DNA of 64,000 bases from a virus (IMGVR_UViG_2693429668_000006); one strand, 5' to 3'. Positions 11,160 to 64,000 are shown, numbered from the stretch's first letter. Program-made: numbers and translations. Notes: generated from the letters alone by a model not told the origin.

Positions 11160-11246
11160 TGGCGGAGAGTAATGGAATCGAACCATCATCGTTTGCACAA
11201 TGGGACGGTTTTCAAGACCGCTTGAGCACCATGCTCCCTACTCTCC
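11160..11246 (-). tRNA. tRNA-Ser (anticodon UGA), class II with long variable arm
   Basis: Minus-strand 87 nt: perfect 7-bp acceptor stem GGAGAGT/ACTCTCC, anticodon loop CTTGAAA, T-arm GGTTCGATTCC, encoded CCA; D-arm atypically short. Confidence 0.6.
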
Positions 11247-11540
11247 AATTGTGTTGTGTGCTCCGTTTCGTGGAGCTAACGGCGGGTGATCAGACCGCAC
11301 CAGGTTGGACGTATTTCAGCGTTATGCTGTTGCAAGAGAGCCAAATTGTGATGGCCGGTGCTGATCTCCGGCATTGCCTACGTTAGCGGCCTTCAGGCAG
11401 TTCATCCGCTTGCTTCTACGTCGCACATCAGCCTGTGCATTCACCACAATGTTGAGAACACTGGTTGTCACGCTGCAACGCAACATTATATTCATAAATT
11501 GGGATATGAACCCGTTACGCCAATGTTCTCAATATTATGT

Positions 11541-11616
11541 TGGTGCCGGTTAACGGACTTGAACCGCTGGCCATTTGCTTACAAAGCGACTGCTCTACCA
11601 ACTGAGCTAAACCGGC
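11541..11616 (-). tRNA. tRNA-Thr-like (anticodon UGU), possibly pseudo-tRNA
   Basis: 76 nt; acceptor GCCGGTT/AACCGGC, D-arm GCTCAGTTGGTAGAGC, T-arm GGTTCAAGTCC, CCA; anticodon loop TTTGTAA, but anticodon stem GTCGC/GCAAA has two mismatches. Confidence 0.5.
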
Positions 11617-11620
11617 AATT

Positions 11621-11707
11621 TGGTGGGGAGTGATGGAGTCGAACCACCCGAGTCGCAATGACAGTAGATTTACAGTCTACACCGCTACCTCTACGGACTA
11701 ACTCCCC
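11621..11707 (-). tRNA. tRNA-Tyr (anticodon GUA)
   Basis: 87 nt; acceptor GGGGAGT/ACTCCCC, anticodon stem-loop GTAGA-CTGTAAA-TCTAC, long variable arm, T-loop TTCGACT, encoded CCA. Confidence 0.8.
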
Positions 11708-11712
11708 TAAAT

Positions 11713-11787
11713 TGGCGATGGTGGGTGGATTCGAACCACCGATCAGTTGGTTAACAGCCAACTGCTCTACCGCTGAGCTACACCATC
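11713..11787 (-). tRNA. tRNA-Asn (anticodon GUU)
   Basis: 75 nt canonical cloverleaf: GATGGTG-TA-GCTC-AGCGGTA-GAGC-A-GTTGG-CTGTTAA-CCAAC-TGATC-GGTGG-TTCGAAT-CCACC-CACCATC-G-CCA. Confidence 0.85.
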
Positions 11788-21607: not shown

Positions 21608-23314
21608 TTAATGATTGAGTATTTTATTAACACGCAGCTTATTAAGTGTTGATTTTGAAGCAACTTCCTCCAAAGCTTCTATTGCTTTATCAGTGATGCT
21701 CTTCTGTTCGTCTGTCGGGTGTTGCATACCCTTGAACTTGAGCATAGTCTCTTCTACTAAATTCAAAGCATCCTGATCACAGGATAATATCCAGTTTACG
21801 TAATCATCTTTAGAAAAACTGTTAAGAATATTCACATCACTATGGTTAAATCTTCCACCAGCTATTTTTTTTATAATTTTATCTAAGTTATAGTCATCTG
21901 GATTTCTATCTTTCAATTTTTTTTCAATTCTGAAACCTAATTCTTCATTTCCGAAGATCTCTACTCGCAAAGAATTAAATGTAGCATACGCATTGTCTTT
22001 ATTAACAAAAGCATCTGCATATGCCTCTATAATATTATTACAATCTCTATCCAATTTGATTAGGACATTTATTAAACCTACGAACTGTCCAATTGGTATA
22101 CGCAACAGACTATCGTTAATTACGCGCTCAATTTGAAAAATAAACTCTGATTCATTATCTTTAAAAGAGTTTCTAAAAACATCCCAAATTTTATAAACCT
22201 CACATAAAACCCTATTATCTCTATATTGTTCATTTTTTTCTTTTATTATATTTAGAATATTGCTTTCAGAAGACACATAACCGTTCTTAAGGTAAAAATC
22301 TATATCATCATCGAAAGCACTTTCTGCTCGTTCATAAATAATATCAAGGCTATTAACAAATGAATATACAGAGTTAACTTCTTCCTTTTCATCTTTATCA
22401 TCTAACATATAGTCGAATGCATGTATATTTTTGATTGACTCCTTAAATGAAGCATAATCAACGCTAGGAACACCAAAATAGTAAACCACTGAAAATAAGA
22501 CCAATCTATTAATAAAACTTTCTCTAACCTTATCCTCTGCTAACTTTAGCACATCTCTAAATATAACTAGAGATGATTTTATTTTATTTAATATTCTAAT
22601 GTTTTTGATGTTTAAATCATTTGCTAGGTTTTTTAACAAAAGAAAATCAGGGTCAGTCTCATAAAAAACTTTTCTTAAGTTTTTCTCAGGCGTGGGATCG
22701 TATTTTATTTCCACATCAATTATTTTTTCTCTATACTCTAAAAACTGTTGTTGTGCAGTTTCTTCATGTAAGTTATCTTCATTTAATATTAGAACAACCT
22801 TGCAATTTTTTCTTCTTGCCAACTCATCAATTACCCCCATAATCTCTTTAATTTCTAGCGCACTACCTTTTCGTTCAATATCATCAATGCAAACCAAATA
22901 ATTATTAACAAATTTATACTCAAGAGATGACAGCAGATTATCAGTTTTGAACCCAAAAAAATCGTTCTTTCCAAAATGTATTAAAAATTTTGACAAGGAG
23001 TTGTATTTCAACCATCCCCAAAACCCATTTCTATAACGAATCATAGTTCGATCCGTTTCAGATAAAATCAGTTCTTTATATTTCTTTTCATTAATTGGTG
23101 TGGCACAATGATAAAGAGCTTTTTTAATGTCTCCAATAGAATTTATTCCAAACAAAGAAACATATGAATATGCATTAAAATCTAATTTTTTAGAATGTTT
23201 AGTATAAAAGCTATTCCAATAATGCGTTTTACCTACTCCCCAATTTCCTTTTATGACAGCAACCCGATGATCTGAGTCCAAAAAATTTTTTAAAAATACT
23301 TCTATCGATTCCAT
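21608..23314 (-). CDS. KAP-family P-loop NTPase
   Basis: 568 aa; KAP-type Walker A VIKGNWGVGKTHYW and Walker B-like LVCIDDIERKG (compare GxWGxGKS and IDDLDR of KAP NTPases); gene body strongly AT-rich. Confidence 0.7.
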   Translation of the reverse strand: MESIEVFLKNFLDSDHRVAVIKGNWGVGKTHYWNSFYTKHSKKLDFNAYSYVSLFGINSIGDIKKALYHCATPINEKKYKELILSETDRTMIRYRNGFWGWLKYNSLSKFLIHFGKNDFFGFKTDNLLSSLEYKFVNNYLVCIDDIERKGSALEIKEIMGVIDELARRKNCKVVLILNEDNLHEETAQQQFLEYREKIIDVEIKYDPTPEKNLRKVFYETDPDFLLLKNLANDLNIKNIRILNKIKSSLVIFRDVLKLAEDKVRESFINRLVLFSVVYYFGVPSVDYASFKESIKNIHAFDYMLDDKDEKEEVNSVYSFVNSLDIIYERAESAFDDDIDFYLKNGYVSSESNILNIIKEKNEQYRDNRVLCEVYKIWDVFRNSFKDNESEFIFQIERVINDSLLRIPIGQFVGLINVLIKLDRDCNNIIEAYADAFVNKDNAYATFNSLRVEIFGNEELGFRIEKKLKDRNPDDYNLDKIIKKIAGGRFNHSDVNILNSFSKDDYVNWILSCDQDALNLVEETMLKFKGMQHPTDEQKSITDKAIEALEEVASKSTLNKLRVNKILNH

Positions 23315-54013: not shown

Positions 54014-54904
54014 TTATGCCGGTAAAGCAATTTCTAACGGTTTATCCAAAGGTTGTTTGTCGAATGCCAGCAGTGGCAGCGTGTCAGGCAGTCGACGGCC
54101 AAAGTCAGGGTTTCGGTACACACCATACAACGGAGACGTAAAGCTCAGGTTGTGAATGTCCTTGAGCAGCTTCACAATGCTGGCCTCGTCCACCAGACTG
54201 TCGGCAATGTCCTGAATCGTCGTGCCACGATTCCGCCCAGCTTTTGCCAGGGAACTGTTCTTATGGTAGTCCGCCACCAAATCGCGCAGCGCACGGCGAC
54301 GACGAGACTCGCTCATAGCGAACAACTCTTTGACGATCGCCTCGTTATCACCCGGGTCGGAGCGGAAATGGCGCTGGAACACACGCAGTGCACTTTCATA
54401 GCTCTTCGGTCGCTCAGGGCGGATGAACTTAAACCCTGCTTTCATGGCGAAGGGATTGTATTTGCTCATCGAGGACTGGATCTCAATGATTGGCCGGTCA
54501 TGCATCCTGCTAACCAGGTTAATCATTCTATAAGAGACGCCTACGCCACGATACTGAGTATCCACAACTGAGCGACTGATCACCGCAAAGTTGTTATTCA
54601 CGTACCGACCCCAGTACTGGTTAGCCACGGTGGTATTAGTGGTTGGTTTCAACTTAGGAAACATGCGGTGGCGAGGTGCCAACAGTAGTTTCGGGTAAGC
54701 CATAACCACGACGCCCACCAGACGGTCATCAAGTTCGCAGCGATAGTAAGTTGGCGCGAAAGGTTTGCCGTCTGTTTTGTAGTGAAGCGACTTAAGAGCG
54801 TGCCAGTCCTCTACAGTTCCCTTTGTAACAGTCATTCGCTCCAGAAAGTCCAGATGACGCGGAAACTCTTCAGGGCGGTAGCGTTTAATGATGATGTCCG
54901 TCAT
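54014..54904 (-). CDS. GNAT-like acetyltransferase-fold protein with C-terminal extension
   Basis: 296 aa; GNAT motif A-like VVDTQYRGVGVSYRMINLV and terminal strand AMKAGFKFIR; ATGA-coupled to ABC ATPase gene. Confidence 0.5.
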   Translation of the reverse strand: MTDIIIKRYRPEEFPRHLDFLERMTVTKGTVEDWHALKSLHYKTDGKPFAPTYYRCELDDRLVGVVVMAYPKLLLAPRHRMFPKLKPTTNTTVANQYWGRYVNNNFAVISRSVVDTQYRGVGVSYRMINLVSRMHDRPIIEIQSSMSKYNPFAMKAGFKFIRPERPKSYESALRVFQRHFRSDPGDNEAIVKELFAMSESRRRRALRDLVADYHKNSSLAKAGRNRGTTIQDIADSLVDEASIVKLLKDIHNLSFTSPLYGVYRNPDFGRRLPDTLPLLAFDKQPLDKPLEIALPA

Positions 54905-55566
54905 GAATGGACCTCATCATGACTACCATTGTGATATTCCACCTTCACGCGTTCTTTGTAGTGCTTGGTGATCTGCATATCAGGGCGCAGCGCGTTCTTC
55001 AGGTCTTCGTGAGTCGTCGCCACCATTACCGTCGCACCAACCTTTCGAGCGGCACGCTGGAGGTTAGACGCCACAACCTGAGCGGTTACACGGTCGAGAA
55101 CAGCGCCGAACTCGTCAGCAGCCCATACTTTAGCGCCTGACTCAATCAGTTTGGCAATCTTGAGACGATATTTCTGGCCGTCTGACATTTCAGAAGGCTT
55201 GCGAACAAACAGATATGCATCGTTCAGACCAGCCATAGATAACAACCCAAGCGCATCACTGGTCGTTTTGCCCAACTGATCGATGACGTTAACCTCATTA
55301 TCGAAGGTAAAATCATCGATGGAGGCTACAGACAGCCCTTCATCCTTCATCTGTCGTTGCAACTCGCGCAGCACAACGGATTTGCCGGAACCGGATTGGC
55401 CGGTGATGTACACCACATCGCCCTGCTTCACTTCCAGCTCCAGATTGTCGTAAAGCGTCCACTCTTTTTCGTCCAGGCCAAGCCCGAACGACTCAGCGAT
55501 TTCCAACGTGCGCGTGGTTTTATTTACGCGTGTCTGAAACGATACGTTGATGATGTATTTGCTCAT
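54901..55566 (-). CDS. stand-alone ABC-type ATPase (nucleotide-binding domain only)
   Basis: 221 aa; Walker A GQSGSGKS, signature-like MSDGQKYRLKIA, Walker B VWAADEFGAVLD, H-loop TTHE; no permease gene adjacent. Confidence 0.75.
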   Translation of the reverse strand: MSKYIINVSFQTRVNKTTRTLEIAESFGLGLDEKEWTLYDNLELEVKQGDVVYITGQSGSGKSVVLRELQRQMKDEGLSVASIDDFTFDNEVNVIDQLGKTTSDALGLLSMAGLNDAYLFVRKPSEMSDGQKYRLKIAKLIESGAKVWAADEFGAVLDRVTAQVVASNLQRAARKVGATVMVATTHEDLKNALRPDMQITKHYKERVKVEYHNGSHDEVHS

Positions 55567-56264
55567 GCAGCCATCTCCCCGGAAGAGATCTTCTCCGCAT
55601 ATGCCACAAATGCGTCTACCCCGCTTTCTCCCGTCATTTCTTCCATATGGGCAAGCAAATCACCAACAACAATGGCAGAGCCAGCAGGGAGCGTTTTAAA
55701 GCCCAATACGTCGACAACACGTACTTCTTCCGCTGCAACTTCACGACTGATCTCGGTGTGTTCATCCTTCTGTCGTTTAGTTTCTTCGCCAAGATCGATA
55801 ACTAGCGAGTCGGTGTCCATTTCTTCTGTCATACTGCCAACGAGAACATTCAACTCACGCTCTTCAAAGCCGAAAACCTCGATATCGTCCAGAACAAGCG
55901 ACTCAAGCTCTTTCTGTAGCTTAATTGCATCGTAATCAATGCTGGCAAGTCGGTTATCTTCAAGGCGCTTCGCACGAACCTCGTCATCACTGAGATCATC
56001 GCGAACAATAACCGGTACGCGCTCAAGTCCAGCAAAAATTGCAGCCTCACGGCGGCCGTGGCCAGTAATAATTACGTCGTTCTTATCGACCGTAATTGGC
56101 TGGTCAAATCCGCGCTTTTTAATGGCTGCGGCTAGATCTCGGATCTGCTGTTCATCATGCTTTTTGGCATTCATCTCATAGGGAATAAGATCTGCCGGGT
56201 CGCGATATACGATTTCAAACTTTTTGGTCATTACATACGCTCCTTGTAGTAGTCGACCAGCCAC
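55563..56264 (-). CDS. ParB-like nuclease-domain protein (ParB/Srx fold)
   Basis: 233 aa; ParB N-domain motif IITGHGRREAA; acidic C-terminal half. Confidence 0.7.
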   Translation of the reverse strand: MAGRLLQGAYVMTKKFEIVYRDPADLIPYEMNAKKHDEQQIRDLAAAIKKRGFDQPITVDKNDVIITGHGRREAAIFAGLERVPVIVRDDLSDDEVRAKRLEDNRLASIDYDAIKLQKELESLVLDDIEVFGFEERELNVLVGSMTEEMDTDSLVIDLGEETKRQKDEHTEISREVAAEEVRVVDVLGFKTLPAGSAIVVGDLLAHMEEMTGESGVDAFVAYAEKISSGEMAA

Positions 56265-56929
56265 ACCAGAGCCTCACCAGCGTTCTCCATTTCATTACCG
56301 GTGTTAATAGCCTGCTCTTTGATGATGTTTTTTATGGTTTCTGCAACACGATCTGACGCATCGAAAGTTACTTTGAAGCGCATGGTCTGATGTTCCGCAC
56401 CCACACGTTCGGTTTTCTCTCGTTTGTCGGTATCGACAGGCTCATCACTACCACGAGACAACGCCTCCAGTGCTTCAAGGTCGATTGCCGCCTCTTTTGC
56501 TAAAACCATCGAGATTTCGTCGTCATACGGAGCGATTTCAGACAGTTGATAGTCAAGTTCTGACTGAATTTCTTCAATGAAGCGTTGCAATGCGATTTGG
56601 TCGTCTTCACCGTATCGCTCGTTGTCCACCAGTGACATCTGTTTAGCTACGACATCGCTAATTTTGCCCACAGAAAGCACCGGAACCGTTGAAATTCCTT
56701 GCTCAATAGCAGCACGCCAGCGATGTTCGCCGCCGAGGATTTCAAAAAATCCATCTTCAAGTTCACGAGCCAAAATTGGCTTAAAAAAGCCCAATTTTTC
56801 GATAGAACCTTTCAGTTTTTCAAAATTCTGCGCACCAACCGAATTGGTGTTCCAGGTATTCGGGCGAAGGTTGGCAACATCAACCTGCAAAATCGTGATT
56901 TTTACATCCATTTTATTGCTACAATCCAC
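56231..56929 (-). CDS. ParB-like nuclease-domain protein (second paralog)
   Basis: 232 aa; ParB N-domain motif ILGGEHRWRAA; overlaps downstream paralog by 34 nt. Confidence 0.7.
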   Translation of the reverse strand: MDCSNKMDVKITILQVDVANLRPNTWNTNSVGAQNFEKLKGSIEKLGFFKPILARELEDGFFEILGGEHRWRAAIEQGISTVPVLSVGKISDVVAKQMSLVDNERYGEDDQIALQRFIEEIQSELDYQLSEIAPYDDEISMVLAKEAAIDLEALEALSRGSDEPVDTDKREKTERVGAEHQTMRFKVTFDASDRVAETIKNIIKEQAINTGNEMENAGEALVWLVDYYKERM

Positions 56930-56993: not shown

Positions 56994-58553
56994 ATGACTG
57001 TTCGGATTGTATCTAACGCAGTAAATGCGCTTATTTCTGGCGCAGATGACAAGGTAAAGCAACTGGTGCAGCAAATGTTGAGCTACGAAGTCGAGACTGG
57101 CGACTGGAAGGGCACAAGCACGATGTTCAACTGGAGTAAAAACTCGTTCCCTGCTGGCTTTGCCAAGCCTGTAGCGGCGAACTTGAACAAGGCGGGCATC
57201 AAATGTGTTCATATCCGCAAAGACAAAGCCCCGGCGCTTGGTAAACCAAATCCTGCGGTTAACCCATTCCCATACAATCCTGATTATGCGTATCAGGATC
57301 AGACTGTGGAAACACTGGTTCGAGAGGGAATGATGATTGCGCAGATCGCTACTGGTGGCGGGAAATCTAACGTTGCCTGCAAAGCAGCTGCACGTATCGG
57401 TCGAATGACATTATTTTTAACAACCCGCTCTGTTCTGATGTTTCAAATGGCCGAAAACTTCCAGAGATCCATCGACTACCGCGCCGAAAATGGCGAACCG
57501 TGGTTAAAAGACCAAAAGGTTGGAGTCATTGGCTCGGGTGAGTTCCAGGTATCACGACATATCAACGTCGCTACAGTTCAAACTCTTGCAAGTTTCCTCG
57601 AAGAACCACCACGCGATGCAACACCAGATAAGAAAAGCTACCACCTCAAACGTCGGGAGTTGGTGAAACGCTTCCTTTCAAGTGTCTCTCTTCTTATTCT
57701 GGAAGAGGCGCATGAGTCTTCAGGCTCAAATTTCTATGACATCGCCAGATTATGTGTGAACGCAGACTATCGTCTGGCGCTTACAGCCACGCCGTTCATG
57801 AAGGATTCGACGGAAGCCAACATGCGCCTGATGGCGGTGGCCGGGCGAATTGAAATTAAAGTCACAGAAAAGTACCTGATTGATCGAGGCATTCTGGCAA
57901 AGCCGTACTTCCTTTATCATAAAGTTGCCTACAAGCCAGACGAGGCCAGAATCAAGGCCGAACTTGCCAACAAACACCTCAATTTTAGAGTTGGTATGAG
58001 CACCGCCTACCAAAAGGCTTATCAGTTGGGGATCGTGTATAATTTGGGACGTAACGAGGCCATAGTGCGCGAGGCATTGCTTTATAAGCAACATTCACTC
58101 AACTGCATGACTCTGGTTCGTCTTAAACGCCACGGGCAAATCCTGATGGAGATGATGAAGGAGTCAGGTCTTAAAGTTGATTTCATCTATGGGGAATCTA
58201 ACCAGACGACAAGGCAAGCAAAGCTGAATAGTTTAGCGTCTGGTGAAATAGATGTTTTAATAGGCTCGACTATTCTGGATGTTGGTGTTGATGTGCCAAG
58301 CGTTGGTGCGGTCATTCTTGCTGGTGGTGGGAAAGCAGAAGTTGAAATGAGACAGCGTGTCGGTCGTGGCTTACGAGCCAAAAAAAATCAGGCAAACGTG
58401 TGTTTTATCACCGATTTCATTGACATTAGCAACAAATACCTGTTGTCTCACTCTTATGAGCGAAAACACATCATCGACACCACACCTGGCTTTGCAGAAG
58501 GTGTATTGCCTATTGATGGAGCATTCGATTTTGGAGTTCTGAAACGAGATTAG
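56994..58553 (+). CDS. superfamily 2 DEAD/DEAH-box-type helicase
   Basis: 519 aa; motif I IATGGGKS, motif II LILEEAHES, motif III LTATP, motif VI QRVGRGLR; strong SD AAGGAAAGAGG. Confidence 0.8.
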   Translation: MTVRIVSNAVNALISGADDKVKQLVQQMLSYEVETGDWKGTSTMFNWSKNSFPAGFAKPVAANLNKAGIKCVHIRKDKAPALGKPNPAVNPFPYNPDYAYQDQTVETLVREGMMIAQIATGGGKSNVACKAAARIGRMTLFLTTRSVLMFQMAENFQRSIDYRAENGEPWLKDQKVGVIGSGEFQVSRHINVATVQTLASFLEEPPRDATPDKKSYHLKRRELVKRFLSSVSLLILEEAHESSGSNFYDIARLCVNADYRLALTATPFMKDSTEANMRLMAVAGRIEIKVTEKYLIDRGILAKPYFLYHKVAYKPDEARIKAELANKHLNFRVGMSTAYQKAYQLGIVYNLGRNEAIVREALLYKQHSLNCMTLVRLKRHGQILMEMMKESGLKVDFIYGESNQTTRQAKLNSLASGEIDVLIGSTILDVGVDVPSVGAVILAGGGKAEVEMRQRVGRGLRAKKNQANVCFITDFIDISNKYLLSHSYERKHIIDTTPGFAEGVLPIDGAFDFGVLKRD

Positions 58554-58555
58554 TT

Positions 58556-58834
58556 ATGAGTGAAAAGAAAACAACTTACTGTCAGGTAGCATTGTCTGAT
58601 AAGGCCAATGACAAACTTGGAAAGTTTCAAGTGAAACTAAAAGAAAAAAATATCAAAATGTCTAAGGCTGAAGTCATAAATACCATTCTGGAACAATTGA
58701 CAATGGCCGACTTTGACAAGGTTATATCTTCTGTCGGGGCTTCCGCTAAGACTCGTGAGAAAATCATGCGTATCTATGAGAACTCTAATATGACAAAGGA
58801 AGATCTCGAAACGCTATTAAGCAGATTAAAATAA
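58556..58834 (+). CDS. hypothetical protein (92 aa)
   Basis: ORF track; 2-nt gap after helicase. Confidence 0.45.
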   Translation: MSEKKTTYCQVALSDKANDKLGKFQVKLKEKNIKMSKAEVINTILEQLTMADFDKVISSVGASAKTREKIMRIYENSNMTKEDLETLLSRLK

Positions 58835-58860
58835 TCACGCTATCAATTAGGGAGACAAAG

Positions 58861-59325
58861 ATGAAGTCTCCCATACTGTTCACTTTCTGTTCTAAAACTA
58901 TCATGAAATACTCGCTTCTCCCTCTACTAACGTTACCAGTGTTGATGCTTGCCGCGTGCCAATCACACCCAATATCAATCCATGACGCCAAACCAGCACC
59001 GCAGGCCAAAGTGTTAAAGTATCAAAGCGCAGCGCCAGCTACGTTGGTGGTAATGAGAGACACAGGTTTTGTAGGAGCTGGATGTGATGCTTCCATTTTC
59101 ATCAACGGCGAAACTGTCGCAAAACTGGCTACAGGCGAAAAAGCGACTTTCCATTTAAATGCCGGAGAATTAATTGTGGGTGCATCTCTTGAAGGTGCAG
59201 GTTTATGTGCTCTAAACCCCGCTCGTCAAGAGCGAGAAACGACTCTGAAGAATGGAGACACAAAAGCGTTCAGGGTGTTTACCAGCAATTCTGGTGACAT
59301 CGACATTCTGCCAACAACTCTGTGA
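58861..59325 (+). CDS. lipoprotein (lipobox LAAC)
   Basis: Signal/lipobox LLPLLTLPVLMLAAC; start may be the internal ATG (MKYSLLP). Confidence 0.55.
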   Translation: MKSPILFTFCSKTIMKYSLLPLLTLPVLMLAACQSHPISIHDAKPAPQAKVLKYQSAAPATLVVMRDTGFVGAGCDASIFINGETVAKLATGEKATFHLNAGELIVGASLEGAGLCALNPARQERETTLKNGDTKAFRVFTSNSGDIDILPTTL

Positions 59326-59329
59326 TGAC

Positions 59330-59854
59330 ATGACAACCAAAGATATTACCTACGGTATCCAAGCTGAACTCTGGCCGCGAGATTACACTAACGTTGAAAA
59401 ACTACTGATGTTCTGGCGCAGAGAACAAATTCCTGTAAGGGTCACTCTCGAAGATGGCCAGGCGTTTTGCATGTACGTTTATGGCCTCATGCCATCTCGT
59501 AACAAAGTTGACCTTTGCCCAGCCCCTTTTGACAAAGAAAATCGTATAAGGCTCCCACTTGAACGCATTAGTACAATTGAATCAGGTGTGGTTGACAGTA
59601 TCGCTCACGATTTCAAAGGTCGACTAACAGTTCACCCTGATTATGTCGATAATCGGCCATCACGCCGCGATTTTTTTGCAATTTGCAACCAAGCCTACAA
59701 AGCAAACAAATCTATAAGGGTGTACATGGCGGATGGCCGTGAAATTGAGGGGGTGTCAGCAGGCGCAGATGCTTGTCAGGTTACACTACGTGTCGAGAAC
59801 GGTAGAAAAATAGTTGTTTTGTTCGATTGGGTTGAACGAATTTTGCCTTTTTGA
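59330..59854 (+). CDS. hypothetical protein (175 aa)
   Basis: ORF-track ORF 59252-59854 trimmed to ATG at 59330 (MTTKDITYG), which begins 5 nt after the upstream stop. Confidence 0.45.
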   Translation: MTTKDITYGIQAELWPRDYTNVEKLLMFWRREQIPVRVTLEDGQAFCMYVYGLMPSRNKVDLCPAPFDKENRIRLPLERISTIESGVVDSIAHDFKGRLTVHPDYVDNRPSRRDFFAICNQAYKANKSIRVYMADGREIEGVSAGADACQVTLRVENGRKIVVLFDWVERILPF

Positions 59855-59857
59855 GTT

Positions 59858-60166
59858 ATGAAATCGATATTGTTACCACCATTATTTTTACTTTGCTCAG
59901 TTGCGGCAAATGCAATGGACTATAAGCCTGTCATTCAGTCGCTGATGAATGACGTGTGCTCAACGTCTCAGAATGTATCAGTTTGCATGTATCAATTTTC
60001 GGCAGCCGTAAAAGCAGGAAAAGCGATAGGCGAGAATGTGGAACTGTGTAAGAAAGTGGCAAATGAAGAACGGGCAATGTTGGATTGCGAATCTAGCGAG
60101 TCATCGGCACAGTTCGTTGATGCGCTATTTGACACCAATCGTAAGGCTGTAGAGTCTGTTCAATAA
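59858..60166 (+). CDS. small secreted protein (signal peptide)
   Basis: 102 aa; MKSILLPPLFLLCSVAANA signal peptide; four Cys. Confidence 0.5.
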   Translation: MKSILLPPLFLLCSVAANAMDYKPVIQSLMNDVCSTSQNVSVCMYQFSAAVKAGKAIGENVELCKKVANEERAMLDCESSESSAQFVDALFDTNRKAVESVQ

Positions 60167-60180
60167 ATCTATAAGGTTAA

Positions 60181-60208
60181 TAACCGGCTAAGTCCGGTTA
60201 TTATTTTT
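60181..60208 (+). terminator. rho-independent terminator
   Basis: Stem TAACCGG-ctaagt-CCGGTTA followed by TTATTTTT, 15 nt after stop at 60166. Confidence 0.7.
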
Positions 60209-60356
60209 CACATCACTTCTTTATATCTACAAATCAAATAACCTAAATATATATAAGGTCTAAAGCCGCAATCAATTATTTATTTAGGGAACACCTTCGA
60301 CGATCTCGCTTTTATTTCTAGGACTTTCATCCCTGCAAAAAATTTAAAAAAAACAC

Positions 60357-60384
60357 TTGCAATCTTTTTTCGCATATCGATAAT
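60357..60384 (+). promoter_or_regulatory. sigma70-like promoter
   Basis: TTGCAA, 16-nt spacer, GATAAT; about 65 nt upstream of ATG at 60450 in an AT-rich intergenic region. Confidence 0.45.
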
Positions 60385-60449
60385 TGAACTCGTCGAAAGC
60401 GAAGACGCTAACGACAATAAATTTTAAATTTACATAAGGAAAAATTATC

Positions 60450-61100
60450 ATGGCTAACATTATCATTTCTAAAAAATCCATCATTGAAGCTGCTTCCATT
60501 GTATCCGATGAACTGCGCGAAAAAGCAGATCTGGCAACTCAAACATATAACGAACATTATAAAAATGGTACGCACACTAAAGCAGACAAAGCAAATATGC
60601 AAGCTGCGACCACTAAACTTGCTTACTTCATCAACAACGTCGTAAACGCAGTAGAAGACGAAAAATTATGCTCTGTTTTCTACTATGCGATTAAAGCAAG
60701 CAAACAAGCGCCAGAAGTATTTTTCCGTGATGCAATGACTAATAGTTATTCTCTGGAAAAACTGGTTTATCTGGTTAAATCAATTAAATCTGGTAAATGC
60801 GTTTATTCCATCGCTGATATGTCTGGATCTCGTGTATTCGCTTTAATCGATATGATTAACGACGAGATCGACACGTTCACTAATGGCGCTGTTTTCGATT
60901 TAATGAATGAAGCTAAAAAAGCGTGTGAAATTAAATTGGACGCTGGTTATACTCAAGCCAACCAGTTGATCAATCTTTGCGAACGTCTTGGACTTGTTGA
61001 AAAAGTCAAAGGAGCTGGGAGCGCGAAAGCTGGTACTCAGCAATATCGCTTCATTAAAAATGATTTCTACAATTATTTAGCTGATGCTTTCAAAGCGTAA
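60450..61100 (+). CDS. hypothetical protein (216 aa)
   Basis: ORF track; own promoter; no motif recognised. Confidence 0.5.
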   Translation: MANIIISKKSIIEAASIVSDELREKADLATQTYNEHYKNGTHTKADKANMQAATTKLAYFINNVVNAVEDEKLCSVFYYAIKASKQAPEVFFRDAMTNSYSLEKLVYLVKSIKSGKCVYSIADMSGSRVFALIDMINDEIDTFTNGAVFDLMNEAKKACEIKLDAGYTQANQLINLCERLGLVEKVKGAGSAKAGTQQYRFIKNDFYNYLADAFKA

Positions 61101-61148
61101 TTAATGGAATCAAGCGCCCACTATGGGCGCTTTAAAGGAGCTTTGAAA

Positions 61149-61352
61149 ATGGTCAGCTATGACAAGATCCGCGCGGAATATCGCGCAAAGTATCGCGCTT
61201 ATAAACTAGAATTAATCGATGATTTAATCGCGCAACGCGACCAATTAAATTTTACGTTTTCTGATTTGCTTAACAGCAAGCGAGATTGCAAGCGCAAACG
61301 TGAATACTTACGTTTAAGCGCATTAATCGGAAAACTTCAAAATTCTATTTAA
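61149..61352 (+). CDS. small basic hypothetical protein (67 aa)
   Basis: ORF-track ORF 61104-61352 trimmed to ATG at 61149 (MVSYDK), which follows hairpin 61113-61131 and SD AAAGGAG. Confidence 0.4.
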   Translation: MVSYDKIRAEYRAKYRAYKLELIDDLIAQRDQLNFTFSDLLNSKRDCKRKREYLRLSALIGKLQNSI

Positions 61353-61372
61353 TTTTTTTAAGGAGCTTAATC

Positions 61373-61603
61373 ATGTTTGTTCTTATCGCTGGCGTTAACG
61401 TCCATAACGAATATTATGTTAATCGCATCGCTGGGATCGCTGGTTACGCTGGGCGCGCAGTCGAGTTTATCGATGAAACAACGCGTAAAATTGATTTATT
61501 GAGCGACCAGGAGCGAAAAAAAGCAGACGTGAACGACGCTGATATATTTTTAATGTTAAAAGCGTTTGTAGAAATGGGATTTAAAATCAGTTTACACAAA
61601 TAA
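61373..61603 (+). CDS. hypothetical protein (76 aa)
   Basis: ORF track; SD AAGGAG upstream; followed by two tandem terminators. Confidence 0.45.
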   Translation: MFVLIAGVNVHNEYYVNRIAGIAGYAGRAVEFIDETTRKIDLLSDQERKKADVNDADIFLMLKAFVEMGFKISLHK

Positions 61604-61608
61604 AATCG

Positions 61609-61632
61609 AGCGCCCACTATGGGCGCTTTTTT
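61609..61632 (+). terminator. rho-independent terminator (GAGCGCCC-acta-GGGCGCTT plus T-run)
   Basis: Hairpin then TTTTTTCG; same hairpin without T-run also at 61113-61131. Confidence 0.7.
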
Positions 61633-61653
61633 CGTTTCCAATACTTCCACAAT

Positions 61654-61680
61654 AACGCGCCATTGATGGCGCGTTTTTTA
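61654..61680 (+). terminator. second tandem rho-independent terminator
   Basis: Stem AACGCGCCA-ttga-TGGCGCGTT followed by TTTTTTA. Confidence 0.65.
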
Positions 61681-62094
61681 TTGTCTTTAACTCACTCCAA
61701 CAACATAAAAATAAGCGCCAAAATAACGCCATAAACGCGCTTTTATATCCTTACCAGTACATACCCATTACTTAACACATTAACGCGCTTAAAACGCGTT
61801 ATATTGCGCTATAGCGTATGGTTAATCATTGGCTTTTAGTCTTGCTATGTGATCCGCGTTTATTTGTCGGCGCGGATCGGCATTTTGTTTTGTTCCGTAT
61901 CCGCTCGCGTATTATGTGCGCGTGATTTTTCACATAATCACACCACTTAATCACGTATGTGATTATGCTACGAAAGAAATCTGGATGTCTCAGGCGACGA
62001 AAGTCATCATAATTTTCCCCGCTCGCCTGTCCGACAACCGCTGGTTGGATTCCACCAGCTTCCCGATGTTTTTTTCTACATAAAGGCGAATGCA

Positions 62095-62208
62095 GCCGTT
62101 TCCCGAAAAAATCCTGGCCGTTTCCCGTCGGCTCATGAATACGTTCCTCGCCGTTTCTGAAAATTTCCCTGCGGCAGCTGGTGGCTATAGAGAAAGGGCC
62201 GTTTCTGG
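62095..62208. repeat. four direct repeats GCCGTTTC(C/T)(C/T)G in non-coding DNA
   Basis: Exact 11-mer GCCGTTTCCCG at 62095 and 62117; variants at 62150 and 62198, the last embedded in hairpin GGGCC-gtttct-GGCCC. Confidence 0.5.
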
Positions 62209-62220
62209 CCCTCTTCTCAG

Positions 62221-62703
62221 TTACACGCCATCAAGGATGTGGATGCGGTTGCTTGCGTATACATTCAGCATAAAGTTAGCGCAAAACAGTTTCCATGTAT
62301 CAACGCCAGCGGTATACGTAATGTTTTTGCATTTAATCGCATTGTTGGCGATCCGCATCCCCTGCGATACTGCTTCATCGTCGGAAAATTTGAACGACGA
62401 TTGAGTTTTAATCCAGACAGAAATCTGCGTAGCGAACTCAATCAGCTTGGACTGGCAGAATCGCCCGGAGCGCACCGGAAAGACGAACGTTCCGAATCCA
62501 GAATTTACCACATATGCTTTCTCAAATACCCGCGAGTAACGACGATTGCCAATGATGTCGCGTGCAATAATGCATTTTTCTTGTGCTGACAGTTCTACCG
62601 TCTCATTGTCGCGCCATGCACCAAGTACTCGTTTTTCAATGTCAGAGAACGTTACAGCGATATTGCCATGTGCGGGTGCGTTTACAGTAGCGATAAAATT
62701 CAT
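62221..62703 (-). CDS. hypothetical protein (160 aa)
   Basis: ORF track; SD AAGGA; conserved upstream element at 62728-62785 shared with the next cassette. Confidence 0.5.
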   Translation of the reverse strand: MNFIATVNAPAHGNIAVTFSDIEKRVLGAWRDNETVELSAQEKCIIARDIIGNRRYSRVFEKAYVVNSGFGTFVFPVRSGRFCQSKLIEFATQISVWIKTQSSFKFSDDEAVSQGMRIANNAIKCKNITYTAGVDTWKLFCANFMLNVYASNRIHILDGV

Positions 62704-62880
62704 GATTAATTCCTTATCGTAAATAACAAATTGTTTTCTTGTTGGTGTTAATTATCGTTGTACGAATAAGGCGTCAAAGTGGAAAGTTGCGGTAGCCGGA
62801 CGGGAACAGGTGGGTTTGTCGGTTGCCTGGAGGTAAGAGGTTGGTGTTTTTAGCCTGCGGGAAACAGGATGGTCATTTAA

Positions 62881-62900
62881 GGCCACCAGCATTGGTGGCC
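62881..62900. terminator. hairpin GGCCACC-agcatt-GGTGGCC
   Basis: Directly downstream of stop at 62908; near-identical copy with inverted loop at 63351-63370. Confidence 0.5.
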
Positions 62901-62907
62901 TTAATCT

Positions 62908-63195
62908 TTAGTGGAGCAGACCGATGTCGATGGTATCCCCTGAATCATCCACACGGATCATCAGCATGGCAAAGGCGTTTAGTGGATAGCTTGCGTGCCA
63001 TTCAGGGAAGCGGTCATCTCGCATGAAGTCGGCAATGTCGTAAACGCATCCCTCAAAGTGGAAGAATCGCGTGCTTACCTGCTCGTCATAATCCACATGA
63101 TCCATTTCTTGCTGTTCTGTTTCCGGCAAGTCCAGCCATGATTCAAGAAATACATTTTGTGCTTTAGGGGTAATGGTGAAATCAGTCATGAGCAT
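62908..63195 (-). CDS. small acidic hypothetical protein (95 aa)
   Basis: ORF-track ORF trimmed to ATG 63195 (MLMTDFT) with SD GTGAGGAT; D/E-rich. Confidence 0.45.
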   Translation of the reverse strand: MLMTDFTITPKAQNVFLESWLDLPETEQQEMDHVDYDEQVSTRFFHFEGCVYDIADFMRDDRFPEWHASYPLNAFAMLMIRVDDSGDTIDIGLLH

Positions 63196-63350
63196 ATCCT
63201 CACTGCGTAAACATGTTGTTTTCTTGTTGGTGTAATTATCGCAGTGTAGATAAGGCATAAAAGAAGTTAATACAGGCTGAATACACAAGAAAGGTTCTGG
63301 AAGTTGATAGCCAGGTTTCAAACTAACCTTCGGTTATTAAAAGTCATTTA

Positions 63351-63370
63351 AGACCACCAATGCTGGTGGC
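63351..63370. terminator. hairpin GACCACC-aatgct-GGTGGCC (loop-inverted copy of 62881-62900)
   Basis: Downstream of stop at 63525; shares flanks CATTTAA...TTAAT with the first copy. Confidence 0.45.
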
Positions 63371-63524
63371 CTTAATAATTATCGCCCGATTACGCTAAGG
63401 ATCTTTTCCTCAACTGATTTGTTGTTGCGACTAAACTGCCTTGCGTATCTGATGACAGAAGAGGCGTTTTGCTTTCTGACCATCTCGGCTCTTTCCTTCA
63501 GGCGTTTCTTGAAATCGCCCATAT

Positions 63525-63899
63525 TTACCACCAGGCGCAGAAGGTCAGTCTGTTATTGTGAAAGTCGTGGTTCTTAATCAGATCTTCCACAAGCTCTTTC
63601 AACTCCCCCACATCATGCCAGTAACCTTCATCGTACTCCTGACTGCCGAAGAAAAAACCTTCCCGGGTAGGCAAGTACTCTTCGCAATTACTTTCGTTTA
63701 TGTGCATCAAATGAGCCTTCAGAAAACAAATGTCATTCATCGTTAATTCTAAAAGCTCACAATTTTCGACTTCACCTACGTTGCGCTCCATCCACCCAAC
63801 GAGCGCATTGAACTTACGGAAGTAAGCAACCTGCTTTCTGGATGCCTCGTTATTCAGATCGTTTTTAGGCTGTGTCTCGATATAGATATCAAGTCCCAT
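63525..63899 (-). CDS. hypothetical protein (124 aa)
   Basis: ORF-track ORF trimmed to ATG 63899 (MGLDIYIET) with SD AAGGAAA; acidic. Confidence 0.45.
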   Translation of the reverse strand: MGLDIYIETQPKNDLNNEASRKQVAYFRKFNALVGWMERNVGEVENCELLELTMNDICFLKAHLMHINESNCEEYLPTREGFFFGSQEYDEGYWHDVGELKELVEDLIKNHDFHNNRLTFCAWW

Positions 63900-64000
63900 G
63901 ATGGTTTCCTTATTAAGTTGCTTCAGTGAAATCATTTTCACAAATCAGATAAGGCAGAAAACAAATTGTTATCGGGCTTAATAAAATGGCGCGGTTTACG

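What the first reader, a model, noticed from the sequence alone, without database searches (positions are those of the whole stretch)
61604..62215. About 600 bp of structured non-coding DNA with tandem terminators, GC-rich inverted repeats and four direct repeats: origin-like or regulatory hub
After two tandem terminators (61609-61632, 61654-61680) the sequence carries multiple short GC-rich palindromes in AT-rich context (AACGCGC..GCGCGTT, GATCCGCG..CGCGGATC, CATAATCACA..TGTGATTATG) and four direct repeats GCCGTTTCYYG (62095, 62117, 62150, 62198). No convincing ORF covers it; the track ORF 62090-62404 runs through the repeats. Iteron-like repeats plus AT-rich segments are typical of plasmid or phage replication origins.
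Basis: seen in the sequence. Interest (0 to 1): 0.55.

Follow-up and report, generated by a model that had tools for sequence, protein, structure and literature searches.

The report
Conserved repeat array between converging phage-plasmid genes
A 600-base non-coding gap, kept in the whole SSU5/pHCM2/pMT1 family of phage-plasmids, holds transcription terminators plus a row of identical 10-base repeats that look like docking sites for a phage DNA-binding protein; it is not the known plasmid origin, and its role (perhaps the phage-mode origin) is untested.

Summary
The window is an SSU5-like phage-plasmid of E. coli. Positions 61604-62220 are the gap where the + strand helicase operon meets the long run of - strand genes.

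- **Repeats and palindromes.** GCCGTTTC occurs 4 times in 110 bp, against 5 times in the whole 64 kb. The gap holds 13 perfect inverted repeats, against about 1 in shuffles.
- **Conservation.** The gap is unannotated and non-coding. It is present in 779 plasmids, including pMT1 of Y. pestis and pHCM2 of S. Typhi. The conserved parts are two + strand terminators, a - strand terminator with compensatory stem changes, an AACGCG/GCGCTTAGAA motif block, and the GCCGTTTCCC units. The GC-rich palindromes are specific to the E. coli lineage.
- **Second array.** Six units at 22-bp spacing lie 3.6 kb further on, outside the window.
- **Neighbouring protein.** The gene just upstream (60450-61100) is predicted to have a winged-helix fold and stays syntenic even in clades with 36-61% protein identity.
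- **Against a classical origin.** The RepA iterons are unrelated and lie elsewhere. There is no unwinding element and no conserved DnaA-box cluster.

Best reading: an iteron-like DNA-binding array of the phage backbone, possibly a phage-mode origin or enhancer. Function is unproven.

The parts
60450..61100 (+). Gene for a 216-aa protein (phrog_1513): N-terminal long helices plus a C-terminal winged-helix. Candidate binder of the repeats.
61113..61131 (+). Extra copy of the terminator-1 hairpin AGCGCCCACTATGGGCGCT after the 216-aa gene
   Evidence: Read directly. It lies inside the 5' end of the mechanical ORF 61104-61352, whose PHROG match starts at residue 16.
61608..61632 (+). Intrinsic terminator 1 of the + strand operon. 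It also scores as a terminator on the - strand.
   Evidence: both strands. Stem invariant and loop flipped in relatives.
61654..61680 (+). Intrinsic terminator 2
   Evidence: Stem invariant with 7 different loops among 14 relatives.
61700..61830 (.). Conserved A+T-leaning block with AACGCG(C) / GCGCTTA(A/G)AA motifs and GTACATACCCATTAC
   Evidence: 7 of the window's 23 WAACGCG sites fall in 61653-61861. Invariant columns. GCGCTTAGAA-type motif is kept in the distant clades L111, L028/L142 and L146. Function unknown.
61851..62029 (.). Lineage-specific palindromes (GATCCGCG..CGCGGATC; AATCACR cluster 61921-61967; CAGGCGA..TCGCCTG) in the variable, indel-rich middle of the gap
   Evidence: RNA fold z-score -4.8. 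Not enriched in other clades. Mosaic alignment.
62052..62059 (-). Chi site (GCTGGTGG on the - strand), left of the array
   Evidence: TCCACCAGC is present in the gap of every clade examined.
62095..62104 (+). Repeat R1, GCCGTTTCCC
   Evidence: Invariant in 14 unselected relatives.
62117..62132 (+). Repeat R2, GCCGTTTCCC, followed by GTCGGC. It starts 22 bp after R1.
62150..62175 (+). Repeat R3, GCCGTTTCTG, followed by a second TTTCCCTGCGGC half-unit. It starts 33 bp after R2.
   Evidence: (D11, D13). R3 varies in the Klebsiella clade (CCCGTTCCT, CCCGCTCCT).
62177..62184 (+). Chi site (GCTGGTGG), right of the array
   Evidence: Kept in most but not all clades.
62190..62217 (-). Intrinsic terminator of the - strand gene 62221-62703. 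Repeat R4 (62198-62207) lies in its stem and loop.
   Evidence: Stem pairs are canonical on the - strand in 44-48 of 48 distinct sequences for 8 of 11 pairs. On the + strand many of these pairs are A-C mismatches. Stems differ between clades: GGGCC/GGCCC, GGGGC/GCCCC, GCGUC/GGCGC.
62221..62703 (-). Conserved 160-aa gene (phrog_1641) of unknown fold that bounds the gap

Best explanation
The gap is a conserved cis-acting module of the phage backbone of SSU5-type phage-plasmids. It lies where the + strand UvsW-like helicase operon and the long run of - strand genes converge.

Shown:
- Intrinsic terminators close both transcription units.
- Between them lies a same-orientation array of 10-bp units (GCCGTTTCCC). 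The cores are conserved while spacers, unit number (2-4) and the rest of the gap drift.
- A paralogous array of 6 units at 22-bp spacing lies 3.6 kb further on.

Inferred:
- The units are binding sites on duplex DNA for a sequence-specific phage protein. The likeliest candidate is the winged-helix protein encoded just upstream (60450-61100).
- The two arrays may be brought together in one nucleoprotein complex.

Most likely role, roughly 0.3 on its own: origin or enhancer of phage-mode (lytic) replication, separate from the plasmid's RepA origin, in the manner of the two-part ori/crr of satellite phage P4. The broader claim, 'protein-binding DNA repeat array', I put at about 0.55.
For: - Clustering far beyond chance.
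- Core invariant with variable spacers in 14 relatives chosen without reference to the motif.
- The motif is also present in relatives found by protein or by the terminator only (L143/L144; L146).
- All units are on one strand. Spacing is 22 and 33 bp in array A. It is 22, 31, 22, 22, 22 bp in array B of the identical plasmid pTIC and 22, 22, 22 bp in L068/L129.
- Array B is non-coding: the annotated ORF there breaks frame between 89%-identical relatives.
- No other cluster of the motif exists in 64 kb, so this is a unique cis site rather than a promoter element.
- The module is independent of the plasmid replicon type: it occurs with IncFIB, rep_cluster_488, 763 and 2469.
- The adjacent syntenic gene has a predicted winged-helix fold.
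- The array is not unusually structured as RNA (z -1.4) and has no Rfam match.
- The genome encodes its own replisome and T4-type recombination proteins, but no phage-mode origin is annotated in the records examined or mentioned in the one family-wide study searched.
Against: - No DNA-unwinding element lies next to the array.
- Only one relaxed DnaA box is present; such boxes are not enriched in the window, and no exact box is seen in the other clades (read).
- Only 9-10 bp per unit are conserved, shorter than classical 17-22-bp iterons.
- Spacing beyond R2 is not strictly kept (33-34, 46-49; 38 in L146).
- Cumulative GC skew turns at about 57 kb, the divergent junction, not here.
- Both arrays sit at ends of converging transcription units, an unusual place for an origin.
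- Short flanking inverted repeats (GCCG..CGGC) and G-T wobbles that favour the + strand hint at an RNA role.
- Binding by the 216-aa protein is pure inference.
- pMT1 lacks array B yet keeps array A.
Confidence: 0.4

Rival explanations
1. RNA-level element. The repeats act in + strand RNA, either read-through past the two terminators or a transcript started in the gap. They would form a pyrimidine-rich platform that loads Rho or binds an RNA-binding protein such as the FljA-like protein of the same operon. This would insulate the - strand genes from antisense transcription.
For: - Both arrays lie at the 3' end of + strand genes, facing - strand genes.
- The + strand gene before array B shows no obvious hairpin-plus-T-run terminator (read by eye; no scan was run).
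- The arrays are C-rich on the + strand in most clades (C 31-36%, G 18-28%).
- The GGCCG..CGGCT pairs around R2 are canonical on the + strand in 45-48 of 48 sequences, but A-C mismatches on the - strand.
- R3 shows one GC<->CG exchange.
- An FljA-like gene (PF03614, with weak Hfq similarity) travels with the module.
Against: - No promoter is detectable (3 promoter-like sites against 4.4 expected).
- Two good terminators lie upstream.
- In this window C-G is only +8%, within 1 SD of the window average.
- Fold z-score is -1.4.
- The RNAalifold covariation term is -0.2 kcal/mol, with only 1 of 20 predicted pairs changed on both sides.
- A 22-bp period and an invariant 10-nt core are not what Rho needs.
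- One Y. pestis sRNA-seq study lists two pMT1 sRNAs, neither in this region; its other pMT1 entries were not read.
Confidence: 0.2
2. Another kind of cis-acting DNA site bound by the winged-helix protein: a centromere-like or condensation site, or the packaging (pac) recognition site.
For: - Direct-repeat arrays in two clusters resemble tubC, parC and pac sites (own knowledge).
- The site is unique in the genome.
Against: - No partition NTPase is encoded with the 216-aa gene; its neighbours are small proteins without families.
- The family already has separate, variable par cassettes.
- Terminase genes are about 9 kb away (ORF list only; terminase names).
Confidence: 0.15
3. Only the terminators are functional. 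The repeats and motifs are relics of duplicated terminator cassettes with no role of their own.
For: - The same terminator hairpin is copied at 61113 and 61609, and three times in L111.
- R4 is part of a terminator.
- The AAGCGCCA/AACGCGCC motifs resemble terminator half-stems.
- The middle of the gap is mosaic and variable.
Against: - The R1/R2 cores are invariant while adjacent spacers change.
- The motif survives in clades whose flanking proteins are 30-60% identical.
- A second array with a strict 22-bp period would not be kept by chance.
Confidence: 0.08
4. It is the plasmid (prophage-state) replication origin used by RepA.
For: Iteron-like look only.
Against: - pMT1 RepA iterons are TATCCACTGTAGAGAGTA-type and flank repA, about 10 kb from the gap.
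- repA lies outside this window.
- The gap is kept across four different replicon types.
Confidence: 0.02

Closest known systems
Iteron-type replication origins (lambda ori, P1 oriR, R6K, RK2, F oriS)
   Same: Several direct repeats in one orientation at about two helical turns. A gene for a winged-helix-type protein lies next to them.
   Different: The conserved core is only 9-10 bp. There is no adjacent unwinding element or conserved DnaA/IHF sites. Terminators separate the gene from the repeats. The site lies at a convergent junction.
Satellite phage P4 ori + crr (own knowledge)
   Same: Two clusters of the same short direct repeat lie several kb apart on one replicon. P4 has octamers TGTTCACC 4.5 kb apart; here there are 10-mers 3.6 kb apart.
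   Different: P4's binder is the alpha primase-helicase. No alpha homologue was looked for here, and the candidate binder is a small winged-helix protein. Function is untested.
IncFIB/P1-type RepA origin of pMT1 and pHCM2
   Same: Same replicon family; both have direct repeats.
   Different: Unrelated repeat sequence and a different location. The module is present whatever the replicon type.
Centromere arrays bound by winged-helix proteins (TubR-tubC, AspA)
   Different: No TubZ/ParA-type motor gene lies in the operon.
Bidirectional intrinsic terminators at convergent gene ends
   Same: Terminators 1 and 2 and the - strand hairpin 62190-62217 are ordinary examples, with loop variation and compensatory stems.
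   Different: They account for only about 110 of the 617 bp.

Membership tests
Iteron-type replication origin | Three or more direct repeats, same orientation, spaced in helical phase | tested here: met
   R1-R3 at 22 and 33 bp. Array B at 22, 31, 22, 22, 22 bp.
Iteron-type replication origin | Adjacent A+T-rich DNA-unwinding element | tested here: not met
   The least stable 50-bp stretch in the gap has dG -61 (64% AT). The window's 95th percentile is -58.4. The array flanks are of average or above-average stability. The same holds in SSU5 and L111.
Iteron-type replication origin | Host-factor sites (DnaA boxes, IHF) conserved near the repeats | tested here: not met
   One TTWTNCACA match at 61926. 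The window holds 4 against 7.5 expected. The AATCACR cluster is lineage-specific. IHF sites were not scanned formally.
Iteron-type replication origin | Cognate initiator that binds the repeats | not testable with these tools
   The adjacent 216-aa protein has a predicted winged-helix. Binding is inference only.
Iteron-type replication origin | Supports autonomous or helper-dependent replication | not testable with these tools
   Needs cloning into an ori-less vector, or marker-frequency analysis.
IncFIB RepA origin of the pMT1/pHCM2 family | Repeats match the RepA iteron and flank repA | tested here: not met
   The iterons are TATCCACTGTAGAGAGTA-type around repA, about 10 kb away. repA is not in the window.
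Intrinsic (Rho-independent) terminators | G+C-rich hairpin followed by a U-run, with the stem kept and the loop free to vary | tested here: met
   for 61608-61632, 61654-61680 (+) and 62190-62217 (-).
Described structured RNA family (Rfam) | Match reaching a family's gathering score | tested here: not met
   Best matches score 18-26 bits against gathering scores of 41-70 bits, all on the terminator hairpins.
Structured non-coding RNA (undescribed) | Compensatory base changes and folding energy beyond shuffles over the array | tested here: inconclusive
   z -1.4 (+) and -2.3 (-, including the terminator). One pair has GC<->CG exchange and several have GC<->GU on the + strand. There is too little variation to decide.
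P4-type bipartite ori/crr | Two clusters of the same short direct repeat kb apart on one replicon | tested here: met
   Array B is 3602 bp from R1 in the identical plasmid. It is also present in SSU5, Cyrano, L107, L068 and L129.
P4-type bipartite ori/crr | Both clusters required in cis and bound by the initiator | not testable with these tools
   pMT1 lacks array B, but it is not known to be an active phage (own knowledge).
Partition centromere (parC/tubC type) | Repeat array in or beside an operon encoding the adaptor and a motor NTPase | tested here: not met
   Neighbours of the 216-aa gene have no NTPase family. The family's par cassettes are elsewhere and variable.
Rho-dependent terminator (rut site) | C-rich, G-poor, unstructured RNA of about 80 nt | tested here: inconclusive
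   Window array: C 29%, G 21%, not unusual. Other clades: C 31-36%, G 18-28%. A stronger C>G stretch lies at 61680-61740.

The most novel reading that the evidence does not exclude
Arrays A (in the window) and B (3.6 kb away), together with the upstream winged-helix protein, form a so-far undescribed phage-mode replication origin or enhancer. It would be shared by the whole SSU5 supergroup, including pMT1 of Yersinia pestis, pHCM2 of Salmonella Typhi and resistance-carrying E. coli and Klebsiella phage-plasmids. It would work without a classical unwinding element, perhaps through looping between the two arrays, or through transcription- or recombination-primed initiation linked to the T4-like UvsW/UvsY/gp32 set.
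Probability: 0.25. Interest if true: 0.7.

Novelty: new member of a known kind. Interest (0 to 1): 0.5.

Why it matters
SSU5-type phage-plasmids are common in clinical Enterobacterales. This gap is in 239 of 5426 complete E. coli genomes and in 779 PLSDB plasmids. The family includes the plague plasmid pMT1 and the typhoid plasmid pHCM2, and members carry resistance genes.

Their plasmid origin (RepA) is known. I found no description of how they switch to phage-mode replication, or of which cis sites that needs, in the literature I could search.

This module is non-coding yet about as conserved as the neighbouring genes. It is independent of the plasmid replicon type and sits next to a conserved DNA-binding gene. 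That makes it a concrete, testable candidate for such a site. If it is instead an RNA insulator or a centromere-like site, it is still a family-wide control element that annotation pipelines miss.

Tried and rejected
- **Coding.** ORFs through the gap are not conserved: no start codon in relatives, and frame-breaking indels. The annotated ORF over array B breaks frame in a close relative.
- **tRNA or known RNA family.** There are no tRNA genes in the gap, and Rfam gives only sub-threshold hits on the terminators.
- **RepA iterons.** Unrelated sequence and location.
- **DnaA-box cluster.** One relaxed match, no enrichment.
- **Unwinding element.** None found.
- **Palindromes as the conserved feature.** Rejected: they are specific to the E. 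coli lineage.
- **Long-range closing helix between the two inverted Chi sites (62052/62177).** It is predicted in this sequence. It is not supported across the alignment, because the left Chi sits at different positions in other clades.
- **Rho-loading site.** Composition is unremarkable in this window.
- **CsrA-sponge idea (GGA motifs on the - strand).** The - strand hairpins lose pairing in most clades, and the array lies beyond the - strand terminator.
- **XerCD/dif-like site, CRP site, sigma-54 promoter, CRISPR-repeat mimic.** Compared by eye from memory only; no convincing match, and not pursued.
- **The 160-aa neighbour.** No structural relative.
- **Distant relatives of the 216-aa protein.** The genome scan returned only close ones.
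- **Literature.** The motif string is in no relevant paper. A search on the family and its origin listed nothing on a phage-mode origin, and the one family paper I read (Pfeifer et al. 2021) does not use the terms 'iteron', 'replication origin' or 'lytic replication'. One preprint on phage-plasmid copy number could not be opened.

Full report
**What the window is.**
The region is 97% identical to the Escherichia phages Cyrano, PhiR41_1 and CMS-2020a. It is 100% identical to plasmid pTIC MF554642.1. All are SSU5-like phage-plasmids. In the annotated relatives, almost every gene runs in one direction, which is the - strand of the window. The exception is a block led by a UvsW-like helicase, which is on the + strand here (56994-61603). 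Positions 61604-62220 are therefore the place where the two directions converge. The last + gene ends at 61603 and the first - gene (160 aa) ends at 62221.

**Checking the observation.**
- Terminators. The two tandem terminators are found by the pattern scan at 61608-61628 and 61654-61675. The scan gave 9 terminator-like sites in 2 kb against 2.1 expected.
- Repeats. GCCGTTTC occurs at 62095, 62117, 62150 and 62198, all on the + strand, with one further copy in 64 kb. In 1000 dinucleotide shuffles of the 612 bp, no 8-mer reached four copies.
- Palindromes. The region holds 13 perfect inverted repeats of at least 7 bp, against 1.1 +/- 1.1 in shuffles.
- ORF. The ORF 62090-62404 has no conserved start, suffers frame-breaking indels in relatives, and overlaps the real - strand gene.
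- AT-richness. This claim does not hold up. GC is 45%, and the least stable 50-bp stretch is not among the least stable 5% of the window.

**Conservation and anatomy.**
The gap (580-650 bp) is unannotated everywhere. It is nevertheless recognisable in 779 plasmids of Escherichia, Klebsiella, Enterobacter, Yersinia (pMT1), Salmonella (pHCM2), Citrobacter and Cronobacter. In E. coli it is in 239 of 5426 complete genomes, always on a plasmid and nearly always in a single copy. An alignment of 14 diverse members shows four zones.
1. The two + strand terminators. Their stems are invariant and their loops vary or flip.
2. An A+T-leaning block with AACGCG / GCGCTTA(A/G)AA motifs and GTACATACCCATTAC.
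3. A variable, mosaic, indel-rich middle.
4. A highly conserved right end (62072-62215). Here the cores of R1 and R2 are invariant while the spacers between them change.

The conspicuous GC-rich palindromes all lie in the variable middle. Palindrome excess outside the terminators is found only in the E. coli lineage. The hairpin that contains R4 is the terminator of the - strand gene. Its pairs are canonical on the - strand in nearly all of 48 distinct sequences, but many are A-C mismatches on the + strand. Its stem differs between clades in a compensatory way. In one Klebsiella clade this terminator has no GTTTC in its loop, so R4 is not a dependable member of the array.

**More arrays and more distant relatives.**
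A pattern scan of viral contigs, followed by reading of the loci, showed a second array that I call B. It has four to seven units of CC(G/T)TTTCC(C) at 21-23-bp spacing. It lies about 3.6 kb to the right in SSU5, Cyrano, L107, L068 and L129.

In pTIC, the plasmid identical to the window, array B has six units spaced 22, 31, 22, 22, 22 bp. It lies 3602 bp from R1, which corresponds to window position about 65,697, beyond the window's end. The ORF annotated across array B in Cyrano changes frame in an 89%-identical relative, so array B is also non-coding.

Synteny of 216-aa gene, gap with array, then a - strand gene persists in more distant clades:
- L111 clade: the 216-aa protein is 61% identical.
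- L146: 49% identical.
- L028/L142 clade: 36% identical.

The motif itself is retained in these clades, with change. L146 keeps two units 38 bp apart. The L028 clade has TTTCCC pairs plus TTCCCGTAGG three times. L143/L144 and L146 were found without using the motif, so its presence there is not a selection artefact.

**What it is not.**
- It is not the plasmid origin. In pMT1, repA lies about 10 kb away and is flanked by TATCCACTGTAGAGAGTA-type iterons. By coordinate mapping onto the Cyrano record (my own calculation), repA falls outside this window. The gap occurs with four different replicon types.
- It is not a known RNA family.
- The array is not unusually structured as RNA: z is -1.4 on the + strand, and -2.3 on the - strand when the terminator is included. 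RNAalifold finds almost no covariation.
- Classical origin features are missing. There is no unwinding element. There is one relaxed DnaA box with no enrichment in the window, and I saw no exact box at that place in the other clades. Cumulative GC skew turns at the divergent junction near 57 kb rather than here.

**The neighbouring proteins.**

**Most likely mechanism.**
What is shown:
- terminators on both sides of the gap;
- an array of conserved cores with drifting spacers, all in one orientation and close to helical phase;
- a paralogous array with a strict two-turn period;
- a motif cluster that is unique within the 64 kb;
- independence from the plasmid replicon type;
- a syntenic gene predicted to have a winged-helix fold.

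What is inferred: the units are duplex-DNA binding sites for a phage protein, probably the 216-aa protein, and the two arrays cooperate. I put this general claim at about 0.55.

For the function I favour a phage-mode replication origin or enhancer (about 0.3). Three things point that way:
- The element belongs to the conserved phage backbone.
- The genome carries its own replisome and T4-type recombination genes, yet no phage-mode origin is annotated in the records I examined.
- The two-cluster layout recalls P4 ori/crr (own knowledge).

The missing unwinding element, the short core and the convergent location weigh against it.

**Rivals.**
- An RNA-level role on the + strand (0.2). It is supported by the position of both arrays at the 3' ends of + genes, by C-richness in most clades, and by G-U-compatible pairs that work only on the + strand. 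It is weakened by the two upstream terminators, the lack of a detectable promoter, the weak fold statistics, and the two pMT1 sRNAs I could read in one Y. pestis sRNA-seq study, which lie elsewhere.
- A centromere-like or packaging site (0.15). It lacks an associated motor gene.
- Terminator relics without their own function (0.08). This is hard to square with core conservation across clades whose proteins are 30-60% identical.
- The RepA origin (0.02). It is contradicted directly.

**Comparison and novelty.**
The terminators are ordinary. The array works like an iteron or centromere-type protein-binding repeat. It fails two defining tests of a classical iteron origin (unwinding element, host-factor sites), and its function cannot be tested here. 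I therefore file it as a new member of the known kind 'cis-acting direct-repeat array next to its putative binding protein', not as an origin.

I found no description of it. The motif string appears in no relevant paper. The family-wide study I read (Pfeifer et al. 2021) does not use the terms 'iteron', 'replication origin' or 'lytic replication'. RefSeq annotates nothing here.

**Verdict.**
The finding is a real, conserved and so far unannotated element. The origin interpretation is only partly supported. Interest is moderate (0.5). It would be higher if marker-frequency or binding experiments showed it to be the phage-mode origin of this clinically widespread family.

Noticed in passing
whole window; e.g. 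62052-62059 (-), 62177-62184 (+), 62883-62890 (-), 63362-63369 (+): The Chi sequence GCTGGTGG occurs 15 times in 64 kb, against 1.4 expected (0 of 100 shuffles). Two inverted copies flank repeats R1-R3. One copy sits inside each of two near-identical - strand terminator hairpins, and its orientation is set by a flipped loop (GCAT vs ATGC).
   Followed up: partly
beyond the window; equivalent to about 65,697 (L145 5249-5376 in plasmid pTIC MF554642.1): Second array of six CC(G/T)TT(T/C)(T/C)C-type units spaced 22, 31, 22, 22, 22 bp, in another large non-coding stretch. In the relatives read (SSU5, Cyrano) it is followed by GTAATGGC repeats. pMT1 lacks this array.
   Followed up: partly
62704-62910, 63193-63381, 63897-63967: Each small - strand gene carries its own repeated cassette: a conserved leader (AACA..TGTTTTCTTGTTGGTGT), an ATTATCG..ATAAGGC element that looks like a promoter on the - strand, and a copied terminator. 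G-rich tandem units of about 27 bp (GGTAGCC..AGGTGGGT) lie at 62775-62860, where C-G is -29%.
   Followed up: partly
59252-59854 (+): Homologue of FljA, the RNA-binding repressor of phase-1 flagellin (PF03614, E 2.5e-84, with weak Hfq similarity). It stays with the 216-aa gene and the gap even in the most distant clade (L028 2225-2749). Its target in a phage-plasmid is unknown.
   Followed up: no
61104-61352 (+): The mechanical ORF probably starts at 61149. A copy of the terminator hairpin AGCGCCCACTATGGGCGCT lies at 61113-61131 inside its 5' end, and the PHROG match begins at residue 16. This small gene and the next (61373-61603) are present or absent in different clades.
   Followed up: partly
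54901-56929 (-): Two ParB_N-domain proteins and an ABC-type ATPase are transcribed divergently from the UvsW-like helicase. Their role is unknown, and no link to the repeats was found.
   Followed up: no
61921-61967: Five AATCACR motifs in both orientations within 44 bp, including one relaxed DnaA box (TTTTTCACA at 61926). Only two copies (TTCACATAATCACA) are kept in other clades.
   Followed up: partly
9001-10000 and 22001-23000: Two strongly A+T-rich kilobases (GC 31% and 28.5%). By my coordinate mapping onto the Cyrano record (not checked by alignment), they would fall near the repressor/integrase region and the ParA cassette.
   Followed up: no
11160-11787 (-): Cluster of four tRNA genes (Ser-tga, Thr-tgt, Tyr-gta, Asn-gtt).
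   Followed up: no
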